From NCBI GenBank assembly GCA_030648835.1, contig JAUSGT010000002.1:89665-153664 (forward strand): a DNA stretch of 64,000 bases. The letters run 5' to 3'. Both the position numbers and the translations under genes were made by a program. This DNA comes from Candidatus Moraniibacteriota bacterium (GTDB lineage: Bacteria > Patescibacteriota > Minisyncoccia > Moranbacterales > UBA1568). Of the stretch, positions 313 through 8,642 are shown piece by piece. The notes beneath the pieces are model-generated. The model was not told the DNA's origin. It saw only the letters and a list, made by a program, of their open reading frames with translations, and ran no database searches. The first letter of the stretch is position 1. Each line of letters starts with the position of its first letter.

Positions 313-1164
313 ATGAAAAACACCACCAGATACAAGTTCCCATACTCAGACATTGAGTTGGCCGAGAAGATCAATAGCATATTGGAGGAATATGATGTTC
401 CTCTAACGTTGAGGCAGGTCTATTACCGGCTTGTGGCTCTTGGGCTGATGAATGCCCAGAAAGTGTACCAGAATCTCTCAGGGAAACTCTCGAGGCTTCG
501 AGAGCAGGGATTGGTTCTTTGGGAAAGGATTATTGACCTGAAGAGACAGCCTGAAAAGGAGCCATCGTGGACAAGTCCAGAGTCATTCTTTGAAACTGTC
601 AGCCAGTCGTACAAACGGGACTTACAGCAAGAACAGGCTAAGTATATTGAGGTTTGGTGCGAGAAAGCTGTCGCCATACGGCAGATCACTGATAAGTACG
701 ACGTGAGCCTACTGGCCGGAGGCGGCTATAGAAGCAGTTCAGCCCTCTACGAAGCCTCAAAACGCTTCAAGAATATTGGCAAGCCGATTGTCATACTATA
801 CCTAGGCGATTTTGATCCCTCTGGGTTGGATATTGAAAGAGACATAGAAACCCGTATGAGAGGAGTTTTTGACATCGAAGTAGATGTTCAAAGGGTCTTA
901 CTGGTTCTCCAGGACATAACTGACTACCAACTGTTGCCAAGCCCGGTAAAGCCTACGGATCCCAGGACAGCCGCGTATATAGCAAAATACGGCGTTACAG
1001 ATGTCTATGAGCTCGATGCCTTGCCGCCAAACGTTATAGCGGAGAAATTGGAAGAAGCTATTTGCAGAAATATGGACGTGGAGTTATACGAAACGCAATT
1101 GGCGAGACAGGAGCTGGACAATGCAGAAATCGACAAGTTCATAGAAAAAGGGAATATTTCTTAA
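313..1164 (+). CDS. Topo VI-A/Spo11-like 'Mini-A' protein (winged helix with putative catalytic Tyr + Toprim)
   Basis: 283-aa ORF. 'LRQVYYRLV' resembles the R-x-x-[FY]-Y catalytic-tyrosine motif of the Spo11/Topo VI-A 5Y-CAP domain. Downstream Toprim-like acidic motif 'LYLGDFDPSGLDIERD' (DxD). No fused or adjacent GHKL B-subunit. Confidence 0.55.
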   Translation: MKNTTRYKFPYSDIELAEKINSILEEYDVPLTLRQVYYRLVALGLMNAQKVYQNLSGKLSRLREQGLVLWERIIDLKRQPEKEPSWTSPESFFETVSQSYKRDLQQEQAKYIEVWCEKAVAIRQITDKYDVSLLAGGGYRSSSALYEASKRFKNIGKPIVILYLGDFDPSGLDIERDIETRMRGVFDIEVDVQRVLLVLQDITDYQLLPSPVKPTDPRTAAYIAKYGVTDVYELDALPPNVIAEKLEEAICRNMDVELYETQLARQELDNAEIDKFIEKGNIS

Positions 1165-1176
1165 AAAATCAATCTT

Positions 1177-1458
1177 ATGAAGCATTTTGAAATGTGTGAC
1201 GCGCCAATTTGTGCAGACAGAGAAGCGTACGAAAACAATCCCAACTGGCAGAAAACGGTGTCTTGGCATCCCGGTGAGGCGGTGTGCGGGATGAAGCCGT
1301 ATGCAAAATGGCAGAAACGACAAACAAAAATTAACCGTTGGCTGTTAGCTGGGAAGCTAAAATATCCCGAACTTTTCTTCACGGTGGAAACACTTTTACG
1401 AAAGAAATTGTTGTATCGAGGAATAAAGGGCGACAACCCGGATGCGGAGATAGGGTAA
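1177..1458 (+). CDS. small Cys-containing hypothetical protein
   Basis: 93-aa ORF 13 nt after the previous stop, same strand; several Cys/His (CDAPIC...C); no recognisable domain. Confidence 0.3.
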   Translation: MKHFEMCDAPICADREAYENNPNWQKTVSWHPGEAVCGMKPYAKWQKRQTKINRWLLAGKLKYPELFFTVETLLRKKLLYRGIKGDNPDAEIG

Positions 1459-1660
1459 TTTGAAGAAAAAGTGCCACAGATGGGGCTGTCACAGAAGATG
1501 TAATGAGTAAATGGTGCCAATCTATGCCAAGAAAATAAAAAGCCTCAAATAAGCCTTCGATAACTTTAGTAGGACTGAGCTATAGTGAAAGCATTCTGTT
1601 AAGAGTTTTTTTGGGGAAAATCCCGATTGGGAGACTTGATTATAGGAACACATAAAGTGA

Positions 1661-2488
1661 ATGTTAAAACGCACTGATACAAAAATAATTATCTCTGGCT
1701 CCATAGTTGAAGTCCATTCTTACGTGGGTGAGCCATTGTATTATGGCTTTACTGTTTTCCCCAATAGTAAAACAAGAAGAAAGATCGAGGTCATTGATGA
1801 AGAAAGCCTGCTCCGAAAATCAGAATCAAGGAAAAGATCAATGAGAAGAGCCGGGTCAAATATTAGAAAGCTTGTGAATTCCAATGCGTGGCGATGGAAA
1901 AATTCAATAGGGATACCATATGAACCAATATTTGTCACGCTTACATTTAAAGATGATGTTCGAGATGTAAGAAAAGCTAATGCAGAATTTACACATTTTA
2001 TACGTCGTTTGAACTATAAAGTCTCCGGCAAATCCAATAAGTTTATTTTTAAGTACATATCGGTAATTGAGTTTCAAGACCTCAACCGGGGTGGAGTAAT
2101 ACACTACCATACCGTCTTCTTTAATTTACCAACTGCTGTAGCAGATATTCTTTCACAGATTTGGGGGCATGGGTTTATTGATAAAAAGAAAATAGAAGAA
2201 ATTGACAATGTGGGTGCTTATATTTCCAAGAGCTTATCTTCAGCGCACGATGATAGCCGTTTGGATGGAAATAAGCATTATTTTTCAAGTAGTGGGTTGC
2301 TTCAGCCAATCGAAATAAGAGAACAGGGTAAAGCCCAGGCTATTAAAAAGCTTCTTTTAGGAGAAAATATTGCTAAAGTAGTAGATAATTCCGACAGATA
2401 TCAAGGAAGAGTGGAGCGTGTTTCCTACCAACTGAATAAAAGCGAGACATTATCTGATACTATCCCGGAAGTATATAACTTACCATGA
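1661..2488 (+). CDS. rolling-circle replication initiator (HUH endonuclease superfamily Rep)
   Basis: 275 aa; three Rep motifs in canonical order: motif I 'FVTLTF', motif II 'GGVIHYHTVFF' (H-u-H), motif III 'GAYISKS' (Y-x-x-K). Confidence 0.55.
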   Translation: MLKRTDTKIIISGSIVEVHSYVGEPLYYGFTVFPNSKTRRKIEVIDEESLLRKSESRKRSMRRAGSNIRKLVNSNAWRWKNSIGIPYEPIFVTLTFKDDVRDVRKANAEFTHFIRRLNYKVSGKSNKFIFKYISVIEFQDLNRGGVIHYHTVFFNLPTAVADILSQIWGHGFIDKKKIEEIDNVGAYISKSLSSAHDDSRLDGNKHYFSSSGLLQPIEIREQGKAQAIKKLLLGENIAKVVDNSDRYQGRVERVSYQLNKSETLSDTIPEVYNLP

Positions 2489-2510
2489 ACAATTTAATTT
2501 TTAGAAAATT

Positions 2511-3056
2511 ATGGGAAATAAATATCTAGTCGAAGAATGTTTCTTCTTAACGCCCAGAGATGTTGGGAGAAGGTTTGATCGTATTAGGAAGTTAGGAACC
2601 AATATTCTTGAAGGGCGGGATGATATTTCATACTGGTTTGATGATATGTCTGAGCCGACTTGTCTTTTTGTTAGCGTAGATGGTCACGAGCCACAGAAAT
2701 TTATTTGGGAGCCAGTTGAACTGACATTTGGTGAAGCAGCTTATTTTCATTGTGGATGCGGGTACAAAGCACGAAAGTTATACTTACTCCCAAGTGGTAA
2801 TGAATTCAAATGCCGAAAATGCCATAACTTACGTTACGCACTCTCAGTCCTGAATAGCAAATCTATTGCAGGCAGGGTCATCTATCGTGCGAACCGCCTC
2901 CATAAACTTGCAAACAGCCGAGCATGTATGGGTAGGATTTTTTATGATGGTAACTTTACAAAAAGGTTTGAGAGATTCCTTGGTCTTTGCGATAAAGCGG
3001 GTCTGGAGGACATAGTCAGGGGTGCAAACGCTTTAAAAGAGCTGGTTAGGGGGTAA
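2511..3056 (+). CDS. zinc-ribbon hypothetical protein
   Basis: 181 aa; 'CGCGYK...EFKCRKCHN' four-Cys ribbon; begins 23 nt after the Rep stop. Confidence 0.45.
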   Translation: MGNKYLVEECFFLTPRDVGRRFDRIRKLGTNILEGRDDISYWFDDMSEPTCLFVSVDGHEPQKFIWEPVELTFGEAAYFHCGCGYKARKLYLLPSGNEFKCRKCHNLRYALSVLNSKSIAGRVIYRANRLHKLANSRACMGRIFYDGNFTKRFERFLGLCDKAGLEDIVRGANALKELVRG

Positions 3057-3167
3057 GTATTTCAACGAAGTCAGAATATTTGCCTTCTCTATTTACAGAG
3101 GAAACGTCATAGCACAAAGTGTCTTGTAGGAGTAGTTTTATTTTAGTTGCTGCAGAAAAAGTTACTT

Positions 3168-3177
3168 TCTGTTATAA
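3168..3177 (+). promoter_or_regulatory. extended -10 promoter element (TGtTATAAT) upstream of MTase
   Basis: 'ctgTTATAAT' with TGn extension 9 nt upstream of ATG 3186; no good -35. Confidence 0.35.
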
Positions 3178-3185
3178 TACATCCT

Positions 3186-4220
3186 ATGGATTCAATATTG
3201 AGTACAATTGACCTCTTCGCTGGTATTGGCGGTATCCGCAAAGGCTTTGAAAGAGCTGGTTTTGAAACACTCTATGCGGCAGATATCGATGCGGGATGTA
3301 AGGTTACGTATGACTTAAACTATAAAAATACGCCACTCACTTTGCAGAGCGTGACGGATATTGTTCCGGAGACCCTTCCGAACTTTGGTGTATTGTTGGC
3401 TGGATTTCCCTGTCAATCCTTTTCTGTCGCTGGTGGCAAAGCAGGTTTTGCTGACAAAGGACGAGGGGATCTCTTTTTTGAAATAATGAAGGTGCTTGAA
3501 GTGAAAAAACCCGCTGCAGTATTTCTTGAGAATGTTAAACATTTAGCGAAACACGATCATGGTCGGACCTTCGTCATAATAAAGGAACTTCTTGAGCGCT
3601 GTGGCTACCATGTAAAATTTGCGATGATGAATAGTGCCGAATATGGCAATGTTCCACAAAATAGAGACCGCATATATATTGTGGGCTTTCGAGACATGAA
3701 TGTATCCAATGCATTTGAATTTCCATCAAAAAAGATTTTGGAGCATTCTATAACAGATTTGCTTGAGACTGATGTTCCAGAAAAATATTATTACAAAAAA
3801 GGTTGGCTTTATGACCGTATAAAAAGCTTGGGTATGAAGCGAGGGCTAATATATCAGTGGCGTAGAGTTTATCTGAGAGAAAATAAAAGTGGTGTTTGTT
3901 TCACCTTGACTGCAAACATGGGGATGGGTGGACACAACGTCCCACTTGTTCGAGATGCAAAAGGGTTGCGTCGCCTTACACCACGTGAGTGCGCTCATTT
4001 GCAAGGATTCCCTAAAGGTTTTAAATTGCCGACGTCTTTACCGGATTCTCGTTTATATAAACAGATTGGTAACTCTGTAACAATTTCTGTAGTGGAGCGT
4101 ATCGCTCGTAACATCCGTAAGGCATTGGAGACGCCTAAAAAATCATATCGAGTACGTGTTGAAAGGAGGGCATCCGTTGATCAACAGGTTACTAAATCAT
4201 TCGTTGAGCTGGTTACTTAG
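3186..4220 (+). CDS. DNA (cytosine-5)-methyltransferase
   Basis: Motif I 'DLFAGIGG', IV 'GFPCQSFSVAG', VI 'VFLENVKHL', VIII 'QNRDRIYIVG', X 'IGNSVTISV'. Start placed at ATG 3186 (MDSILSTIDLFAGIGG) because the longer ORF start at 3147 would include the promoter. Confidence 0.9.
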   Translation: MDSILSTIDLFAGIGGIRKGFERAGFETLYAADIDAGCKVTYDLNYKNTPLTLQSVTDIVPETLPNFGVLLAGFPCQSFSVAGGKAGFADKGRGDLFFEIMKVLEVKKPAAVFLENVKHLAKHDHGRTFVIIKELLERCGYHVKFAMMNSAEYGNVPQNRDRIYIVGFRDMNVSNAFEFPSKKILEHSITDLLETDVPEKYYYKKGWLYDRIKSLGMKRGLIYQWRRVYLRENKSGVCFTLTANMGMGGHNVPLVRDAKGLRRLTPRECAHLQGFPKGFKLPTSLPDSRLYKQIGNSVTISVVERIARNIRKALETPKKSYRVRVERRASVDQQVTKSFVELVT

Positions 4221-4286
4221 TTAAAATAGCGTAGCGCTCTATTACCTCTGATTCGGTGGTATTTTTTGTTTTTCAAAAAAGTAACT

Positions 4287-4321
4287 TGACAAAACGGTAG
4301 TAGGGGTATACTATTAGTAAT
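4287..4321 (+). promoter_or_regulatory. sigma70-like promoter for the GHKL operon
   Basis: 'TTGACAaaacggtagtaggggTATACT', -35/-10 with 15-16 nt spacer, ~10-40 nt upstream of the first ORF. Confidence 0.4.
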
Positions 4322-4327
4322 AGCGTT

Positions 4328-4579
4328 ATGCCCTTGCTAAGGGCGATATGTATAAAAATTATGAAGAACCAAAAACGTATTCGCTTTGAACGCCTAGCTG
4401 TATATCGTACTAACGAAGTCCTGAAGCGCCTTAAGGTGCTTGGAAACTGTGGTAATCGTAGTGCATACGAATACAGTGAAGAGGAAATAAATAAAATATT
4501 TGCTGAAATAGAACGGAATGTTAGAGATTCACGTGCGAAGTTCCATTTTCCGAAGGGTCGTAAAGAATTCCGTCTCTAA
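4328..4579 (+). CDS. small basic hypothetical protein (possible regulator); first gene of GHKL operon
   Basis: 83-aa ORF (alternative start MKNQK at 4361); stop is 2 nt before the next ATG. Confidence 0.4.
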   Translation: MPLLRAICIKIMKNQKRIRFERLAVYRTNEVLKRLKVLGNCGNRSAYEYSEEEINKIFAEIERNVRDSRAKFHFPKGRKEFRL

Positions 4580-4581
4580 AT

Positions 4582-6477
4582 ATGCTCAAAGCTCAAAAGA
4601 AAAAAAAGAGTGAAGTTGTATTAGGCTGGCACTTCCCAGCCCTTGATCATGCCGACACAGAGGGGCTAAATGATCCGCTTTTGGGATACTTTGGTGGCGA
4701 TTATAACCAATGTGTGGCAAGAGAAGTGATCCAGAACTCCATAGATGCACGGGACGACACGGAATGCCCAGTGTTTGTTAAATTTGAAAAATTAAAACTA
4801 CCCATAGCAGATGTCCCTGGTATTGCAGAATTGAAAGAGCATATAAAAATTTGTTTGGCTCAGGCCAAAAGCGAACACAACGACAAAGCGGAAAAGCACT
4901 ACAGGGATGCCCTAAAGATTGCCACGGCAACGTCCATTGATGTTCTCAGAGCTTCTGACTACAATACGTCAGGTTTGGACGGTGTCGACGACGATAAAAA
5001 AGGGAAATGGCACCGGCTTGTGAAGGCGGTTGGAGAGAATCAGCTTACAGGGGCGGGTGGTGGATCATACGGTATTGGAAAAGGAGCACCTTTTGTTGCT
5101 TCTATGATGAGAGCAGTCTATTACTCTACAAAAAACTCTTCTGGTGAGGTTATTTTTCAGGGAAAAGCACGGCTACTTAGCCATCAGTGGAAGGGTAGTG
5201 ATTATCGCGGAGTAGGGTCGTTTGGCATCGAGGGCTATAAGTCTGTAAGAGAGGAAGGTAAAATCCCAGAAATTTTTATACGAGACAAACAAGGAACGGA
5301 CATCAATATCATAGGGTACAATGTAACGCCGTCATGGAAGGACGAACTTGCAAAGTCAGTGCTGGATAATTTTTGGATGGCCATACATTCCAACGACCTG
5401 GAAGTTATCATAAGTGATGGGGCGGATGAAATCAGTATAAACCGAGCAACCCTACCAGAACTTTTAGAGAAACATAGCCGGGATGAGGGCCTCATATATT
5501 ACCGCACGGTTATCAATCCGACTCGTACGTTCAAGAAGCAACTTCCTTTGCTTGGAGCCTGCACTTTCTATGTGCGCATTGAGGAAAGATTTCCGAGGGA
5601 GACAATATATATGCGACGACCAAAAATGCGGGTGAGCAAATGGCGTTTTCCAAAGACCTTACATGAACCGCATGCCGGATTGTTCATTTGCGAGGATGTA
5701 GAGGGGAATAAACTACTACGAAACTTAGAGCCTCCTGAGCATGATGAATGGAAGGCTACTCTAGATCCTCTGCAGGGGAAAGAAATCATAGCAGCAGTAC
5801 GTTCATGGATTACGGGGAATTTGAAGGAGTTGGCGGCGGAGGAAAGCGACGACTCAGAAGAAGTCCCTGGATTGGAGAAGTTTCTGCCTTACGATGAAGA
5901 CTCTGAGAAGGAATCACTTGCCAACAAGAGCAGGAGCAAGCCGGCGGACTTCGCGGAATTAGAAGAAGGGCCGGTTGAAGTTGGAGCTGAACGTGAGGAA
6001 ACCGAGGACGAAGTTGAGGATCATGTAAGGAAACCTTCAAGCCTCACTCCATCGAGTGGCGATGATCCAAATTATCGTCATGGCAATGGGAGCAGGCGCC
6101 ACCGTAGAGGGGGAGGCGGAAACAACAACGTGGACCCTGATGGTGACGCCATTAAGCGCATTGATACGTCCGCAGTAAAATTCAGAATTATTCATACTGG
6201 GCGATCAGAGATGGGAAATGCTGAGTACTGTCTCGTTATTGAGCCTCTTGCCGATGTAGAAGGGGCTATAGATGTTGTAGCTCTTGGGAACGACTCTACA
6301 GTGTACCCGATTCCACTTGCATATGCCGAACCTTGGGATAAAGAATCGGGTTCCTTCAGTATCGAAAAATCTTATATCAATGGACTGAAGCTTAAGAAGG
6401 GGAAAGAACTACGCATCAAGATTGGTACAATGTCGAAGTCTAGGTATGCCCTTGGTATAGAAAATTATGAAAGCTAA
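4582..6477 (+). CDS. GHKL-superfamily (Bergerat-fold) ATPase with acidic disordered C-terminal region
   Basis: 631 aa. N-box 'REVIQNSIDA' (E-x3-N-x2-D). G2 box 'GGGSYGIGKGAPF' (Hsp90/MORC/TopoVI-B-like GxxGxG). Long D/E-rich low-complexity stretch before a C-terminal ~130-aa domain. Confidence 0.7.
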   Translation: MLKAQKKKKSEVVLGWHFPALDHADTEGLNDPLLGYFGGDYNQCVAREVIQNSIDARDDTECPVFVKFEKLKLPIADVPGIAELKEHIKICLAQAKSEHNDKAEKHYRDALKIATATSIDVLRASDYNTSGLDGVDDDKKGKWHRLVKAVGENQLTGAGGGSYGIGKGAPFVASMMRAVYYSTKNSSGEVIFQGKARLLSHQWKGSDYRGVGSFGIEGYKSVREEGKIPEIFIRDKQGTDINIIGYNVTPSWKDELAKSVLDNFWMAIHSNDLEVIISDGADEISINRATLPELLEKHSRDEGLIYYRTVINPTRTFKKQLPLLGACTFYVRIEERFPRETIYMRRPKMRVSKWRFPKTLHEPHAGLFICEDVEGNKLLRNLEPPEHDEWKATLDPLQGKEIIAAVRSWITGNLKELAAEESDDSEEVPGLEKFLPYDEDSEKESLANKSRSKPADFAELEEGPVEVGAEREETEDEVEDHVRKPSSLTPSSGDDPNYRHGNGSRRHRRGGGGNNNVDPDGDAIKRIDTSAVKFRIIHTGRSEMGNAEYCLVIEPLADVEGAIDVVALGNDSTVYPIPLAYAEPWDKESGSFSIEKSYINGLKLKKGKELRIKIGTMSKSRYALGIENYES

Positions 6478-7297
6478 AAATATATCATATCCATATCCCG
6501 TCCTTGGTAACGATGACGATGTAGAAGGCAAGTTCGATGCTTCTTTTAAGCATATGCTCAAAAGAGACAATATCATTCTCAAGTCTCGCTTTTCGCTGAA
6601 GAATAAAACGCTTGAAAGACTTATCAGGGAAAAGAAGGCTGTCTACACTGTAGAAGTAGAATGCCCGAGCACGTTTTATAGGAAGCTTTTTTCTACCATT
6701 GAAACGGAAGCAGATTTTGTTTTGTCTTCGACTGTGGTACGAGAGCATGTTTCCGTAGGCTTCTTTATCCGTGCGACAGAAACCTTAGCCGAATACGAGA
6801 TAACCGGGTGTCATGCTGATTATGAAGGCTTTAAATTCGATGTAGGGCCTGGGGATGTATTGGCGCTTGGTGGTTACACATCTTTCATTGCGGAAAAGGA
6901 TTTTGACCCGATGCAACCGGCTGTTTCGTCTCTTATTGCTATTAAACAGGGAAATAAGGATGTAGGGCCAATGGAAATCGACTATTCGCAAGACAAGATA
7001 TTCATCAAACTTTCCCGCAAAGATCATAAGAACTACTCGCAAATAAAAGGGCAAGTAACTATTGCTGGCGTACTTCATTCATCTATAGTGTTGCCGGTCC
7101 TGGCGGACGCCATCCAGCTTGTTTTGTCTGAAGACGAAGAAACGCAGGAGAGACATTGGTTTCGCCGGCTTGAAGTAATTTTGCGACATCAGGGTCTCGA
7201 GGGAGAGGATCCGCTAATTAGTGCCCAGAAAGTTTTGCACGGTCCAATCGAGCGTTGCTTGTCTGGGCTTGTGGAAACCGCTGAGGCAGATGAATAA
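6467..7297 (+). CDS. hypothetical protein (GHKL operon gene 3)
   Basis: 276-aa ORF overlapping the GHKL stop by 11 nt; no recognisable motif. Confidence 0.5.
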   Translation: MKAKNISYPYPVLGNDDDVEGKFDASFKHMLKRDNIILKSRFSLKNKTLERLIREKKAVYTVEVECPSTFYRKLFSTIETEADFVLSSTVVREHVSVGFFIRATETLAEYEITGCHADYEGFKFDVGPGDVLALGGYTSFIAEKDFDPMQPAVSSLIAIKQGNKDVGPMEIDYSQDKIFIKLSRKDHKNYSQIKGQVTIAGVLHSSIVLPVLADAIQLVLSEDEETQERHWFRRLEVILRHQGLEGEDPLISAQKVLHGPIERCLSGLVETAEADE

Positions 7298-7305
7298 AAA
7301 TTATT

Positions 7306-8109
7306 ATGAACCAAAACATTTTCAAGCGGATGTATGTAGCAGAACTCCGGGACAAAGTGCGTAGTGGCGAGTCACTGTGTGATTACCTCAAAAGGGAAGT
7401 CGAATATCCTACAGATGCAGTAATTGAATCTACAATTAAGATAGACTCTGAGAAACTCAAATTGAAGTATCGCGGTACGGGAGAATCAGCAAGCAATGAT
7501 CTAGAAAATGCTATTACTTTGTACGAGGCCTTTCCGGGGCTAACTGAAACGCAAGCTTCTGACTCGAGGCTTTGGACGTATCTTACTCATGTCACTCTAC
7601 GAGATTACGTTTTCGCTCGATGGCCACTTGAGGGTAGTTGCGAACAGATAAAGAATGATAGTAGGAAACAAGCAATTGTCGCTGATTTCATATTAAGTCA
7701 TTGGTTTGCTTCCGGTGGTAGTGATCGCCTACTTCGCCGCAATGCTGCCGCTCGCTTATGGTGGCCAGTACATCTTACGCACGCACCCTGGCTACGTGAA
7801 CCAGAATTCTTTGCAGACCTAGGAGCAAGTGACCCATACCGCTTTACGAAAATATTACTTTCCATGGAAAGCATATATGCGGAGGTGCTTGAGCGTGGAT
7901 TAGGTCGTGATAATCGTATACTCATAACCGTGTTGGAATTTCTTGAGGTAAACAAGGGTATCAAACGTGATCAAATTCGTAGTTTCATGAAAGAACTGAA
8001 CCTGTTTCTTTCCGTTAGAAACCTTTCCTTACTTTCGAGAAAGGGTATGAAAGAAGCAATTTTCAGTGTTGGCGGTGGAGCCATAGCTGAAATGGGACTT
8101 GATTTGTAG
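7306..8109 (+). CDS. hypothetical protein (GHKL operon gene 4)
   Basis: 267-aa ORF 8 nt after the previous stop; Trp-rich 'LWWPVHLTHAPW'; no recognisable domain. Confidence 0.5.
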   Translation: MNQNIFKRMYVAELRDKVRSGESLCDYLKREVEYPTDAVIESTIKIDSEKLKLKYRGTGESASNDLENAITLYEAFPGLTETQASDSRLWTYLTHVTLRDYVFARWPLEGSCEQIKNDSRKQAIVADFILSHWFASGGSDRLLRRNAAARLWWPVHLTHAPWLREPEFFADLGASDPYRFTKILLSMESIYAEVLERGLGRDNRILITVLEFLEVNKGIKRDQIRSFMKELNLFLSVRNLSLLSRKGMKEAIFSVGGGAIAEMGLDL

Positions 8110-8120
8110 GGGGGAGACCT

Positions 8121-8642
8121 ATGGATTTTATATCTATTTATGTATCAGTTTCAAAACAGATATTAAATGACTATCAGTGGCTGGTCGGCATATTTTTCAC
8201 GGCCGGACTGTCATTGTTGGTATATTTTAGACTTCTTAGAATAAATAACTTTCTTGCATATTCCCAAAAATATCACGAGAACCTCAAATCATTTTTATTT
8301 CTTGAGAAGATCAATTATAAAAATGGAGAAATGGTCTATAGGGATTCAGGAGAAGATGTGGAAGAGCAGGACGCCCTAAATTTAACAGTCCTATATAATT
8401 TATTGTCTGAAGTCGGCCTGCTTTATAGAAGAGGGTTAATTAATCGGGATCTTGTATACCAGCACTTTGGGAATGTAGTCTACTCACTTTATACGCAGCA
8501 CAGAGATATCATTAGCCATATTCAAAGCCATACAAAAACAGATAATATTGAATTTTTATTTGAAGCTTTTAGCAAGAGAGGTGTGCGGTGTGATCGGATG
8601 AAGAAGTTGAGAAATTTTTTCTTTGGGAGAAAATCCAAATAG
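8121..8642 (+). CDS. hypothetical membrane-anchored protein (GHKL operon gene 5)
   Basis: 173 aa; N-terminal hydrophobic helix 'WLVGIFFTAGLSLLVYF'; 11 nt after the previous stop. Confidence 0.45.
   Translation: MDFISIYVSVSKQILNDYQWLVGIFFTAGLSLLVYFRLLRINNFLAYSQKYHENLKSFLFLEKINYKNGEMVYRDSGEDVEEQDALNLTVLYNLLSEVGLLYRRGLINRDLVYQHFGNVVYSLYTQHRDIISHIQSHTKTDNIEFLFEAFSKRGVRCDRMKKLRNFFFGRKSK

What the first reader, a model, noticed from the sequence alone, without database searches (positions are those of the whole stretch)
4287..8642. Five-gene operon headed by a GHKL (Bergerat-fold) ATPase immediately downstream of an orphan C5-MTase
The 631-aa protein has a clear N-box (E-x3-N-x2-D) and an Hsp90/MORC-like G2 box (GxxGxGxxxxF), plus an acidic disordered region. 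It is translationally coupled to three uncharacterised ORFs (276, 267, 173 aa; overlapping or short gaps) and preceded by a small basic ORF and a sigma70-like promoter. GHKL/MORC-type ATPases occur in restriction-modification-like conflict systems. An adjacent Dcm without an obvious restriction endonuclease suggests the unknown ORFs may supply the nuclease or sensor functions. I do not recognise this gene set as a named defence system.
Basis: partly seen in the sequence, partly recalled or inferred. Interest (0 to 1): 0.75.

Follow-up and report, generated by a model that had tools for sequence, protein, structure and literature searches.

The report
Methylase-linked MORC-like ATPase defence cassette
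This is a real, widely conserved gene cassette: a cytosine methylase, a small basic protein, a MORC-like ATPase and two partner proteins of unknown fold, already listed as the untested defence candidate "PDC-M33" and carried here on a mobile element in a Moranbacteria genome; how it works is unknown because no nuclease can be recognised in it.

Summary

A, the 276-aa protein (B) and the 267-aa protein (C, Pfam DUF6339) match PADLOC's candidate system PDC-M33 over their full lengths (E 1e-120, 2e-63, 5e-34). The set is therefore catalogued, but I found no paper that tests it.

- **Conserved core:** A-B-C is collinear in about 75 of 80 loci from many phyla.
- **Methylase:** a Dcm-type methylase is within 8 kb in 44 of 55 loci with full flanks, usually just upstream. 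Vsr is present in 20 of 80.
- **Small basic ORF:** conserved in 30 of 80 loci.
- **173-aa ORF:** found in 0 of 80 loci, so it is a local passenger.

No nuclease is detectable. B has no conserved acidic cluster. C is a confident all-helical model with no match to a solved fold, and a HEPN reading was not supported.

The best explanation is a methylation-gated, ATP-driven, restriction-like anti-mobile-element system, related to the paraMORC restriction-modification systems of Iyer et al. 2008. This is a new member of a known candidate kind.

The parts
3186..4220 (+). C5 cytosine DNA methyltransferase (Dcm type). It is the modification partner of the cassette. The mechanical ORF starts at TTG 3147.
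   Evidence: Pfam PF00145 2.6e-80. TIGR00675 1.2e-88. PADLOC MTase_II 1.6e-107. Gene call of 344 aa. Dcm is found next to A-B-C in 44 of 55 loci with full flanks.
4286..4314 (+). Sigma-70-like promoter candidate (TTGACA-17-TACTAT) in the Dcm/small-ORF spacer.
   Evidence: 10 of 12 matches, but the number of such sites in the region equals the chance expectation. Weak evidence.
4361..4579 (+). Small basic helical protein (72 aa from ATG 4361, or 83 aa from ATG 4328). It is a conserved accessory gene directly upstream of A. Its stop is 2 nt before the A start.
   Evidence: Homologues lie directly upstream of A in 30 of 80 loci. F9, A13, R16, N32 and Y36 are invariant. pI 10.2. No family or PDB match.
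4582..6477 (+). PDC-M33A: a MORC-like (paraMORC-type) GHKL+S5 ATPase, followed by an acidic disordered linker (436-522) and a C-terminal beta-sandwich (about 532-626).
6467..7297 (+). PDC-M33B: a 276-aa partner of unknown fold with the N-terminal signature S-Y-P-x-P-V-L-G-N-x-D-D. It overlaps the end of A by 11 nt.
   Evidence: PADLOC PDLC04583 2.2e-63. Present in 77 of 80 loci. 3022 cluster representatives in the 1.84-billion-protein library; the 150 best that are listed are all stand-alone proteins of about 230-290 aa. No Pfam, NCBIfam, PHROG or PDB match. Only D18 is a near-invariant acidic residue across 79 diverse members.
7306..8109 (+). PDC-M33C: a DUF6339 protein, all-helical, with invariant D86, R88, W90, Y92, H95, Y101, R105, W106, R150, W152, W153, T158, E196 and R197.
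8121..8642 (+). 173-aa ORF with one N-terminal hydrophobic helix. It is probably co-transcribed but is not a conserved component.
   Evidence: 0 of 80 related loci contain a homologue. Only a weak sub-threshold DUF4760 hit, 1.4e-4. Hydrophobic window at residues 20-40.

Best explanation
The locus is a member of the candidate anti-mobile-element system PADLOC PDC-M33, in its commonest form: C5 methylase, small basic protein, A, B, C.

**Shown**
- A is a MORC-like GHKL+S5 ATPase with all ATP-binding motifs intact.
- A, B and C form an invariant collinear gene trio with conserved overlaps.
- The trio is usually preceded by a Dcm and often accompanied by Vsr.
- The cassette moves horizontally and sits among other defence genes.

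**Inferred mechanism**
- Dcm marks host DNA at its target sites.
- A dimerises on ATP binding, as MORC, MutL and topoisomerase ATPase modules do, and clamps or loops DNA.
- B and C bind A. C, with its invariant Arg/Trp/Tyr/His/Asp/Glu surface and winged-helix-like tail, is the more likely DNA reader or catalytic subunit. B, with few conserved polar residues, is the more likely adaptor.
- Unmethylated incoming DNA is then inactivated, by cleavage at a site not yet recognisable as a nuclease or by recruitment of another nuclease.
- The small basic protein probably regulates or nucleates the complex.

My confidence differs by claim: about 0.95 that this is a PDC-M33 family member, about 0.75 that the family is an anti-mobile-element defence system, and about 0.45 that it works by methylation-gated restriction. 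The single figure given is for the statement as a whole.
For: - **Family membership:** PADLOC hits to all three PDC-M33 models over their full lengths.
- **Conserved trio:** A-B-C is on the same strand and collinear in about 75 of 80 loci from Patescibacteria, Bacteroidota, Bacillota, Proteobacteria, PVC, Chloroflexi and others. The same order is recovered when anchoring on C.
- **Methylase link:** Dcm is within 8 kb in 44 of 55 loci with full flanks. 29 are upstream on the same strand within 700 bp, and 16 abut A within 100 bp. Vsr is present in 20 of 80 loci, always together with Dcm.
- **Co-inheritance:** Mantel correlations are A-B 0.56, A-C 0.71 and A-Dcm 0.44, all p=0.001.
- **Mobile and defence context:**
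  - A Lactococcus conjugative plasmid carries it next to AbiGI/GII and an AlwI restriction-modification system.
  - A temperate phage carries it next to its integrase.
  - In this window it lies between a serine-recombinase/rolling-circle Rep element and a short pAgo.
- **Precedent:** paraMORC GHKL ATPases occur in restriction-modification operons with Dcm and Vsr. The paraMORC2 hallmark, ExxxH in the C-terminal part of the S5 domain, matches the invariant E383-x3-H387.
Against: - No nuclease or other effector domain is recognisable in A, B, C or the small protein.
- B has too few conserved acidic residues for a metal-dependent nuclease.
- One Bacillota-dominated clade of A lacks any Dcm within 8 kb (11 of 55 loci with full flanks). 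In that clade the trio either works without an adjacent methylase or uses one encoded elsewhere.
- No experimental test of PDC-M33 or DUF6339 was found.
- Co-inheritance with Dcm could partly reflect shared residence in defence islands.
Confidence: 0.5

Rival explanations
1. Nuclease-free epigenetic silencing. The MORC-like ATPase, with B and C, topologically entraps and compacts unmethylated foreign DNA. This blocks its replication or transcription without cutting it, much as eukaryotic MORC and SMCHD1 silence DNA.
For: The best structural matches are MORC3, SMCHD1 and MORC2. No nuclease domain is detectable in any component. The system is tightly linked to a cytosine methylase.
Against: Absence of a recognisable nuclease is negative evidence only. 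C has an invariant Asp/His/Glu/Arg set that could be a new active site. Related paraMORC operons normally include nucleases or helicases. In the Bacillus/Geobacillus clade the trio sits next to PLD-helicase restriction enzymes.
Confidence: 0.13
2. Abortive-infection or toxin-type system. A-B-C senses a phage product or a DNA state and arrests or kills the cell, for example through an RNase activity of C. The neighbouring Dcm is only a frequent island companion.
For: C carries an invariant R88-x6-H95 on one helix, which resembles the HEPN Rx4-6H motif. GHKL-HEPN combinations are known: paraMORC-Ymh fusions and sacsin. Dcm-less loci exist. On Lactococcus pS127 the trio sits beside AbiG without a Dcm.
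Confidence: 0.15
3. Not defence but DNA maintenance. A MutL-like ATPase module assists Vsr or Dcm in very-short-patch repair of T:G mismatches from 5-methylcytosine deamination, or controls the methylase.
Against: The distribution is patchy and horizontally transferred, on plasmids, prophages and integrative elements and inside defence islands. A whole clade lacks both Dcm and Vsr. This window has no Vsr at all. Decayed copies are common.
Confidence: 0.08

Closest known systems
PADLOC-DB candidate system PDC-M33 (A, B, C)
   Same: All three profile models are matched over their full lengths, in the same order and on the same strand.
   Different: The PADLOC hits returned here cover only models A, B and C. 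The data here show that a Dcm, a small basic protein and often Vsr belong to most instances. The candidate is described in the literature only as an unpublished PADLOC candidate, and no functional test was found.
paraMORC GHKL ATPases of restriction-modification operons, especially paraMORC2 (Iyer, Abhiman & Aravind 2008, PMC2292703)
   Same: A GHKL+S5 module. A strongly conserved ExxxH in the C-terminal part of S5 (E383/H387 are invariant here). Neighbourhoods with cytosine methylases and Vsr. Frequent in Gram-positive bacteria. Patchy, mobile distribution.
   Different: The operons described in 2008 centre on SF-II helicases and restriction-endonuclease-fold nucleases, which are absent from this window. 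B and C (DUF6339) are not mentioned in the sections of that paper that were read.
C5 methylase + HEF_HK (GHKL) + Response_reg_2 (+ Vsr) 'two-component-like' loci (Bellieny-Rabelo et al. 2021, PMC8011034)
   Same: An upstream Dcm-type methylase, a paraMORC-related GHKL protein, a conserved small partner and often a downstream Vsr.
   Different: A, B and C do not hit PF19191, PF19192 or HATPase_c_3. These are different protein families, and this system has two partners rather than one.
Eukaryotic MORC2/3/4 and SMCHD1 ATPase modules
   Different: Sequence identity is only 10-12%. There are no CW, coiled-coil or hinge domains. Instead there is an acidic linker and a beta-sandwich tail. A works with two dedicated bacterial partners.
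[not shown]
   Same: A GHKL ATPase linked to cytosine methylation. In six related loci the trio is adjacent to a roughly 900-aa protein, and the one scanned gave a weak MzaA hit.
MutL-Vsr very-short-patch repair
   Different: No MutL C-terminal dimerisation or endonuclease domain, no MutS, a mobile context, and no Vsr in this window.

Membership tests
PADLOC PDC-M33 | Protein matching the PDC-M33A profile | tested here: met
   PDLC04582: E 1.2e-120, residues 15-630 against profile positions 4-625 of 627.
PADLOC PDC-M33 | Protein matching the PDC-M33B profile | tested here: met
   PDLC04583: E 2.2e-63, residues 1-272 against profile positions 1-283 of 289.
PADLOC PDC-M33 | Protein matching a PDC-M33C profile, with the three genes adjacent | tested here: met
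   PDLC04586: E 5.2e-34. The genes are contiguous, with an 11-nt overlap and an 8-nt gap.
PADLOC PDC-M33 | Demonstrated anti-phage activity | not testable with these tools
   No paper mentions PDC-M33 or DUF6339. PDC systems are described as unpublished candidates.
GHKL (Bergerat-fold) ATPase superfamily | Motifs I-IV: N-box ExxxNxxD, G1 DxGxG-like, G2 GxxGxG lid, and GT motif IV | tested here: met
   E48/N52/D55, D126/T129/G131, G161/G164/G166 and G238/T239 are invariant or nearly so in 30 homologues.
GHKL (Bergerat-fold) ATPase superfamily | Bergerat fold plus S5-like transducer domain | tested here: met
   [not shown]
GHKL (Bergerat-fold) ATPase superfamily | ATP binding and hydrolysis | not testable with these tools
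   Inferred only from the intact motifs.
MORC family proper | Sequence membership (Pfam HATPase_c_3 / MORC-specific motif) | tested here: not met
   No Pfam hit for A. HATPase_c_3 appears in 1 of 30 homologues, at E 0.17. The MORC similarity is structural only.
paraMORC2 (Iyer et al. 2008) | [quoted passage not shown] | tested here: met
   E383 and H387 are invariant (consensus EPPxHDxW). The motif lies at the end of the S5-like region of the model. The motif is described.
paraMORC2 (Iyer et al. 2008) | Neighbourhood with DNA methylases and Vsr; mobile, patchy distribution | tested here: met
   Dcm in 44 of 55 loci with full flanks; Vsr in 20 of 80; many phyla.
paraMORC2 (Iyer et al. 2008) | Sequence similarity to reference paraMORC2 members | not testable with these tools
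   The supplementary alignment is not held.
Classical Type II restriction-modification system | Cognate methyltransferase | tested here: met
   Dcm at 3186-4220.
Classical Type II restriction-modification system | Recognisable restriction endonuclease (PD-(D/E)xK, HNH, GIY-YIG or PLD) | tested here: not met
   No such hit for A, B, C, the small ORF or the 173-aa ORF in Pfam, NCBIfam, PADLOC, PHROGs or PDB.
HEPN RNase (considered for C) | Rx4-6H motif | tested here: met
   R88-x6-H95, both invariant.
HEPN RNase (considered for C) | HEPN four-helix fold, or a hit to a HEPN family profile | tested here: not met
   [not shown]
HEF_HK / Response_reg_2 system | PF19191 and PF19192 domains | tested here: not met
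   No hits, even at E up to 1.

The most novel reading that the evidence does not exclude
Dcm, paraMORC, B and DUF6339 form a methylation-guided immune system with no conventional nuclease. The MORC-like clamp, loaded by B and C, would entrap and silence unmethylated foreign DNA, or would use a wholly new catalytic fold in DUF6339. That would make it the bacterial counterpart, and possibly the ancestor, of eukaryotic MORC/SMCHD1 epigenetic silencing.
Probability: 0.13. Interest if true: 0.85.

Novelty: new member of a known kind. Interest (0 to 1): 0.5.

Why it matters
MORC-type ATPases silence transposons in plants and animals. They were predicted in 2008 to descend from bacterial restriction-modification components, yet no bacterial MORC-like system of this type has a published mechanism in the literature I could search.

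This cassette is compact, widespread (at least 281 of 185,579 species genomes, and 3022 cluster representatives of B) and available in culturable hosts (Paenibacillus, Geobacillus, Lactococcus plasmids). It therefore offers a tractable way to ask how a GHKL clamp reads DNA methylation and what it does to unmarked DNA.

Two of its three core proteins have no known fold relative, so a new nuclease or DNA-reader fold may be hidden here.

It also shows that the very small genomes of candidate-phyla-radiation bacteria carry stacked defence cargo on integrative elements. Here that cargo is this system plus a divergent short pAgo.

Tried and rejected

2. **B as a divergent PD-(D/E)xK or other metal-dependent nuclease.** No profile hit was found in Pfam, NCBIfam, PHROGs or PDB, even with a 79-sequence profile. 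Only one acidic residue (D18) is near-invariant.

3. **The 173-aa ORF as a component.** Rejected: 0 of 80 loci contain a homologue.

4. **Sequence-level assignment of A to Hsp90, MutL, GyrB or MORC.** Nothing came from Pfam, NCBIfam or PDB by sequence or profile. Only structure comparison worked.

5. **Literature on an experimentally characterised equivalent.** The searches used PDC-M33, DUF6339, GHKL with anti-phage, paraMORC, MADS and bacterial MORC. They found only VcSduA (a GHKL-Shedu fusion), MANTIS/Gao_RL, SLFN-pAgo-GHKL and HEF_HK, and none is this system.

6. **The small basic protein.** No structural or family assignment could be made.

7. **AFDB Foldseek search for C.** That library was not available.

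8. **The promoter.** The consensus match is no better than chance density.
Full report
**Observation**

- 83 aa at 4328-4579.
- 631 aa at 4582-6477.
- 276 aa at 6467-7297, with an 11-nt overlap.
- 267 aa at 7306-8109, after an 8-nt gap.
- 173 aa at 8121-8642, after an 11-nt gap and behind a GGGGGAGA ribosome-binding stretch.

A Dcm-type methylase lies upstream. The mechanical ORF is 3147-4220, and the gene call on the source contig is 3186-4220.

The protein database identifies the source as a 635,596-bp contig of a Candidatus Moranbacteria genome assembled from a metagenome.

- N-box E48-x3-N52-x2-D55.
- G2 box G161-x2-G164-x-G166-KGAPF.
- An acidic disordered stretch at 436-522, pI 4.6.
- A basic small ORF, pI 10.2.

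The TTGACA-17-TACTAT site at 4286-4314 is real. Such matches are no more frequent in this region than in shuffled sequence (12 found, 12.7 expected).

**What the proteins are**

*A (631 aa).* Pfam, NCBIfam and PDB sequence or profile searches find nothing. An AlphaFold model built on 30 homologues has pLDDT 77.
- Foldseek matches it to GRP94, topoisomerase VI-B, GyrB and MORC4, with E between 1.8e-7 and 4e-4.
- The aligned length covers both the Bergerat fold and the S5-like transducer.
- All four GHKL motifs are invariant. So are R345 and an E383-x3-H387 motif (consensus EPPxHDxW) at the end of the S5 region.
- After the acidic linker comes a beta-sandwich (about 532-626) with no informative match.

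*B (276 aa).* It has no match in any family library or in the PDB, even with a 79-sequence profile.
- Its family has 3022 cluster representatives in the 1.84-billion-protein library. The 150 best that are listed are all stand-alone proteins of about 230-290 aa.
- Its hallmark is the N-terminal S-Y-P-x-P-V-L-G-N-x-D-D.
- Across diverse members only one acidic residue, D18, is near-invariant. This argues against a metal-dependent nuclease.

*C (267 aa).* It is Pfam DUF6339 (8.9e-39).
- Its model is confident (pLDDT 91) and is helical apart from two short N-terminal strands.
- It carries a dense invariant set: D86, R88, W90, Y92, H95, Y101, R105, W106, R150, W152, W153, T158, E196 and R197.

*Small ORF.* It belongs to a conserved family of about 72 aa, which implies a start at ATG 4361. 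It has no assignable fold.

**It is a catalogued candidate**

PADLOC-DB v2 profiles PDC-M33A, PDC-M33B and PDC-M33C match A, B and C over their full lengths, with E 1.2e-120, 2.2e-63 and 5.2e-34. PDC systems are unpublished PADLOC candidates. A few other PDC systems have been tested. I found no paper that mentions PDC-M33 or DUF6339.

**Conservation of the neighbourhood**

A scan of one genome per species (185,579 species) found at least 281 loci encoding a relative of A. I kept 80, from Patescibacteria, Bacteroidota, Bacillota, Proteobacteria, PVC, Chloroflexi, Acidobacteriota and others. Iterated profile searches of their ORFs gave these results:

| Gene | Loci with a homologue (of 80) |
|---|---|
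| B | 77 |
| C | 75 |
| Dcm-type methylase | 58 |
| Small basic ORF, always immediately upstream of A | 30 |
| 173-aa ORF, the 362-aa and 505-aa downstream genes, Rep, and the 283-aa and 181-aa upstream genes | 0 |

B and C are always downstream of A on the same strand. The loci that lack them are mostly truncated contigs.

Further points on the methylase and its companions:
- Of the 55 loci with at least 4 kb on both sides, 44 have a Dcm.
- Of the 56 loci with a full-length Dcm, 29 have it upstream on the same strand within 700 bp, and 16 have it within 100 bp.
- A Vsr gene is present in 20 loci, always together with Dcm.
- Pairwise distances of A correlate with those of C (0.71), B (0.56) and the nearest Dcm (0.44), all with Mantel p=0.001.
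- Anchoring on C instead of A in viral contigs recovers the same order, including a complete Dcm, small ORF, A, B, C, Vsr locus.

**A Dcm-less clade**

A neighbour-joining tree of A shows that the Dcm-less loci fall in one Bacillota-dominated clade. In that clade the trio often sits beside one of two partners:
- a PLD plus SF-II helicase protein that matches Type IV restriction profiles (1.7e-89), in Bacillus, Geobacillus and relatives;
- a roughly 900-aa helix-turn-helix protein with a weak MzaA hit.

**Mobility and company**

- The trio is on 21 plasmids. On the conjugative Lactococcus lactis plasmid pS127 it lies between an AlwI-family restriction-modification system and AbiGI/AbiGII.
- It is also in the temperate Clostridium innocuum phage NatCom_9291, directly after the integrase and with a Dcm downstream.
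- It is rare in viral contigs: 2 loci in 2.9 million contigs.
- In this genome a 580-aa serine recombinase lies about 3 kb upstream of the window start. It is followed by a phage-type topoisomerase-like gene (phrog_6247, 3.9e-56), a rolling-circle Rep and a zinc-ribbon protein. Then come Dcm, the small ORF, A, B, C, the 173-aa ORF, a two-helix membrane protein and a divergent short pAgo (PADLOC pAgo 8.7e-22).

The cassette is therefore cargo of an integrated mobile element and part of a small defence island. This refutes the housekeeping-paralogue alternative, and for B and C it refutes the idea that partners vary freely.

**Mechanism**

What is shown: an intact MORC-like ATPase, two obligate partners, and a usual link to cytosine methylation and its repair enzyme, all in a mobile, defence-rich context.

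What is inferred:
- Dcm marks self DNA.
- The GHKL+S5 module dimerises on ATP and clamps or loops DNA, as MutL, topoisomerase and MORC modules do (for the argument).
- B and C supply DNA reading and inactivation.

This fits the paraMORC restriction-modification systems of Iyer et al. 2008. [quoted passage not shown]

The weak point is the effector, because no nuclease is recognisable. I tested the idea that C is a HEPN RNase, since R88-x6-H95 resembles Rx4-6H and GHKL-HEPN fusions are known. Neither the fold search nor the profile scans supported it.

Three rivals remain:
- nuclease-free MORC-style silencing;
- abortive infection;
- a very-short-patch repair or methylase-control role.

The last is disfavoured by the mobile context, by the clade that lacks Dcm and Vsr, and by the absence of Vsr from this window.

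**Comparison and novelty**

This locus is a member of PADLOC PDC-M33; every defining profile was tested and met. It works like, and probably belongs to, the paraMORC restriction-modification radiation. The motif and context criteria are met, but similarity to reference sequences could not be tested.

It is not any of the following:
- a sequence-level member of the MORC family;
- a member of the HEF_HK/Response_reg_2 system;
- a member of the Mza system;
- a classical Type II restriction-modification system, because no endonuclease is recognisable.

The locus is a new, candidate-phyla-radiation-borne member of a known but uncharacterised candidate kind.

The analysis adds four things: the fuller gene content of the cassette, the structural placement of A next to MORC and SMCHD1, the finding that neither B nor C has a recognisable fold or nuclease signature, and the existence of a Dcm-less clade with alternative partners.

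**Verdict**

Interest is moderate (0.5). The system is real, conserved and mechanistically opaque, but it is already catalogued and was anticipated by comparative genomics.

Noticed in passing
window 8973-11584 (+): The 505-aa protein at 10067-11584 is a divergent short pAgo/PIWI (PADLOC pAgo 8.7e-22, PprPIWI 1.4e-21) with no Pfam hit. It starts 6 nt after the stop of a 362-aa protein (8973-10061) that has two hydrophobic helices and no family. This may be a pAgo with a membrane effector, in a Moranbacteria genome.
   Followed up: partly
window 313-3056 (+) and L083 408-2150 (-): Mobile-element backbone upstream of the cassette. It comprises a 580-aa serine recombinase (just outside the window), a phage-type topoisomerase-like protein (313-1164; phrog_6247 3.9e-56; weak Toprim/JetD-like hits), a rolling-circle Rep (1661-2488; REP_ORF2-G2P 1.7e-16) and a Cys-rich 181-aa zinc-ribbon protein (2511-3056) with no family.
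   Followed up: partly
window 8121-8642 (+): The 173-aa ORF appended to the operon has one N-terminal hydrophobic helix and a sub-threshold DUF4760 hit (1.4e-4). It is absent from all 80 related loci, so it is a lineage-specific passenger of unknown role.
   Followed up: partly
L056, L062, L064, L080, L023, L008, L009 (for example L023 4340-6790): In seven related loci the A-B-C trio lies near a PLD + SF-II helicase protein that matches Type IV methyl-directed restriction profiles (1.7e-89). In the Bacillus/Geobacillus clade three of the four such loci have no Dcm within 8 kb. This may be an alternative partner module.
   Followed up: partly
L027 9661-12864, L042 5336-7999, L055 5386-8175, L079 3074-5818: A protein of about 900-1070 aa abuts the trio (median distance 16 bp) in six Bacillota loci. 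It has RNA-polymerase-alpha-CTD and sigma-70 region-4 helix-turn-helix hits and a weak MzaA hit. Its function is unknown.
   Followed up: partly
L082 (phage NatCom_9291, 1907-8274): A temperate Clostridium innocuum phage carries the full cassette (small ORF, A, B, C, then a Dcm-type methylase) immediately after its integrase. This is a typical prophage defence-cargo position.
   Followed up: partly
L081 (L. lactis plasmid pS127, 6953-10578): A-B-C sits on a conjugative dairy Lactococcus plasmid between an AlwI-family restriction-modification system and AbiGI/AbiGII, with no Dcm within 7 kb. This is a culturable, phage-rich setting in which the system could be tested.
   Followed up: partly
L020, L041, L051, L054, L076, L077: Several related loci carry decayed copies: A or B split into fragments, or B interrupted by an insertion of about 1.2 kb. 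This is consistent with the turnover typical of defence genes.
   Followed up: no
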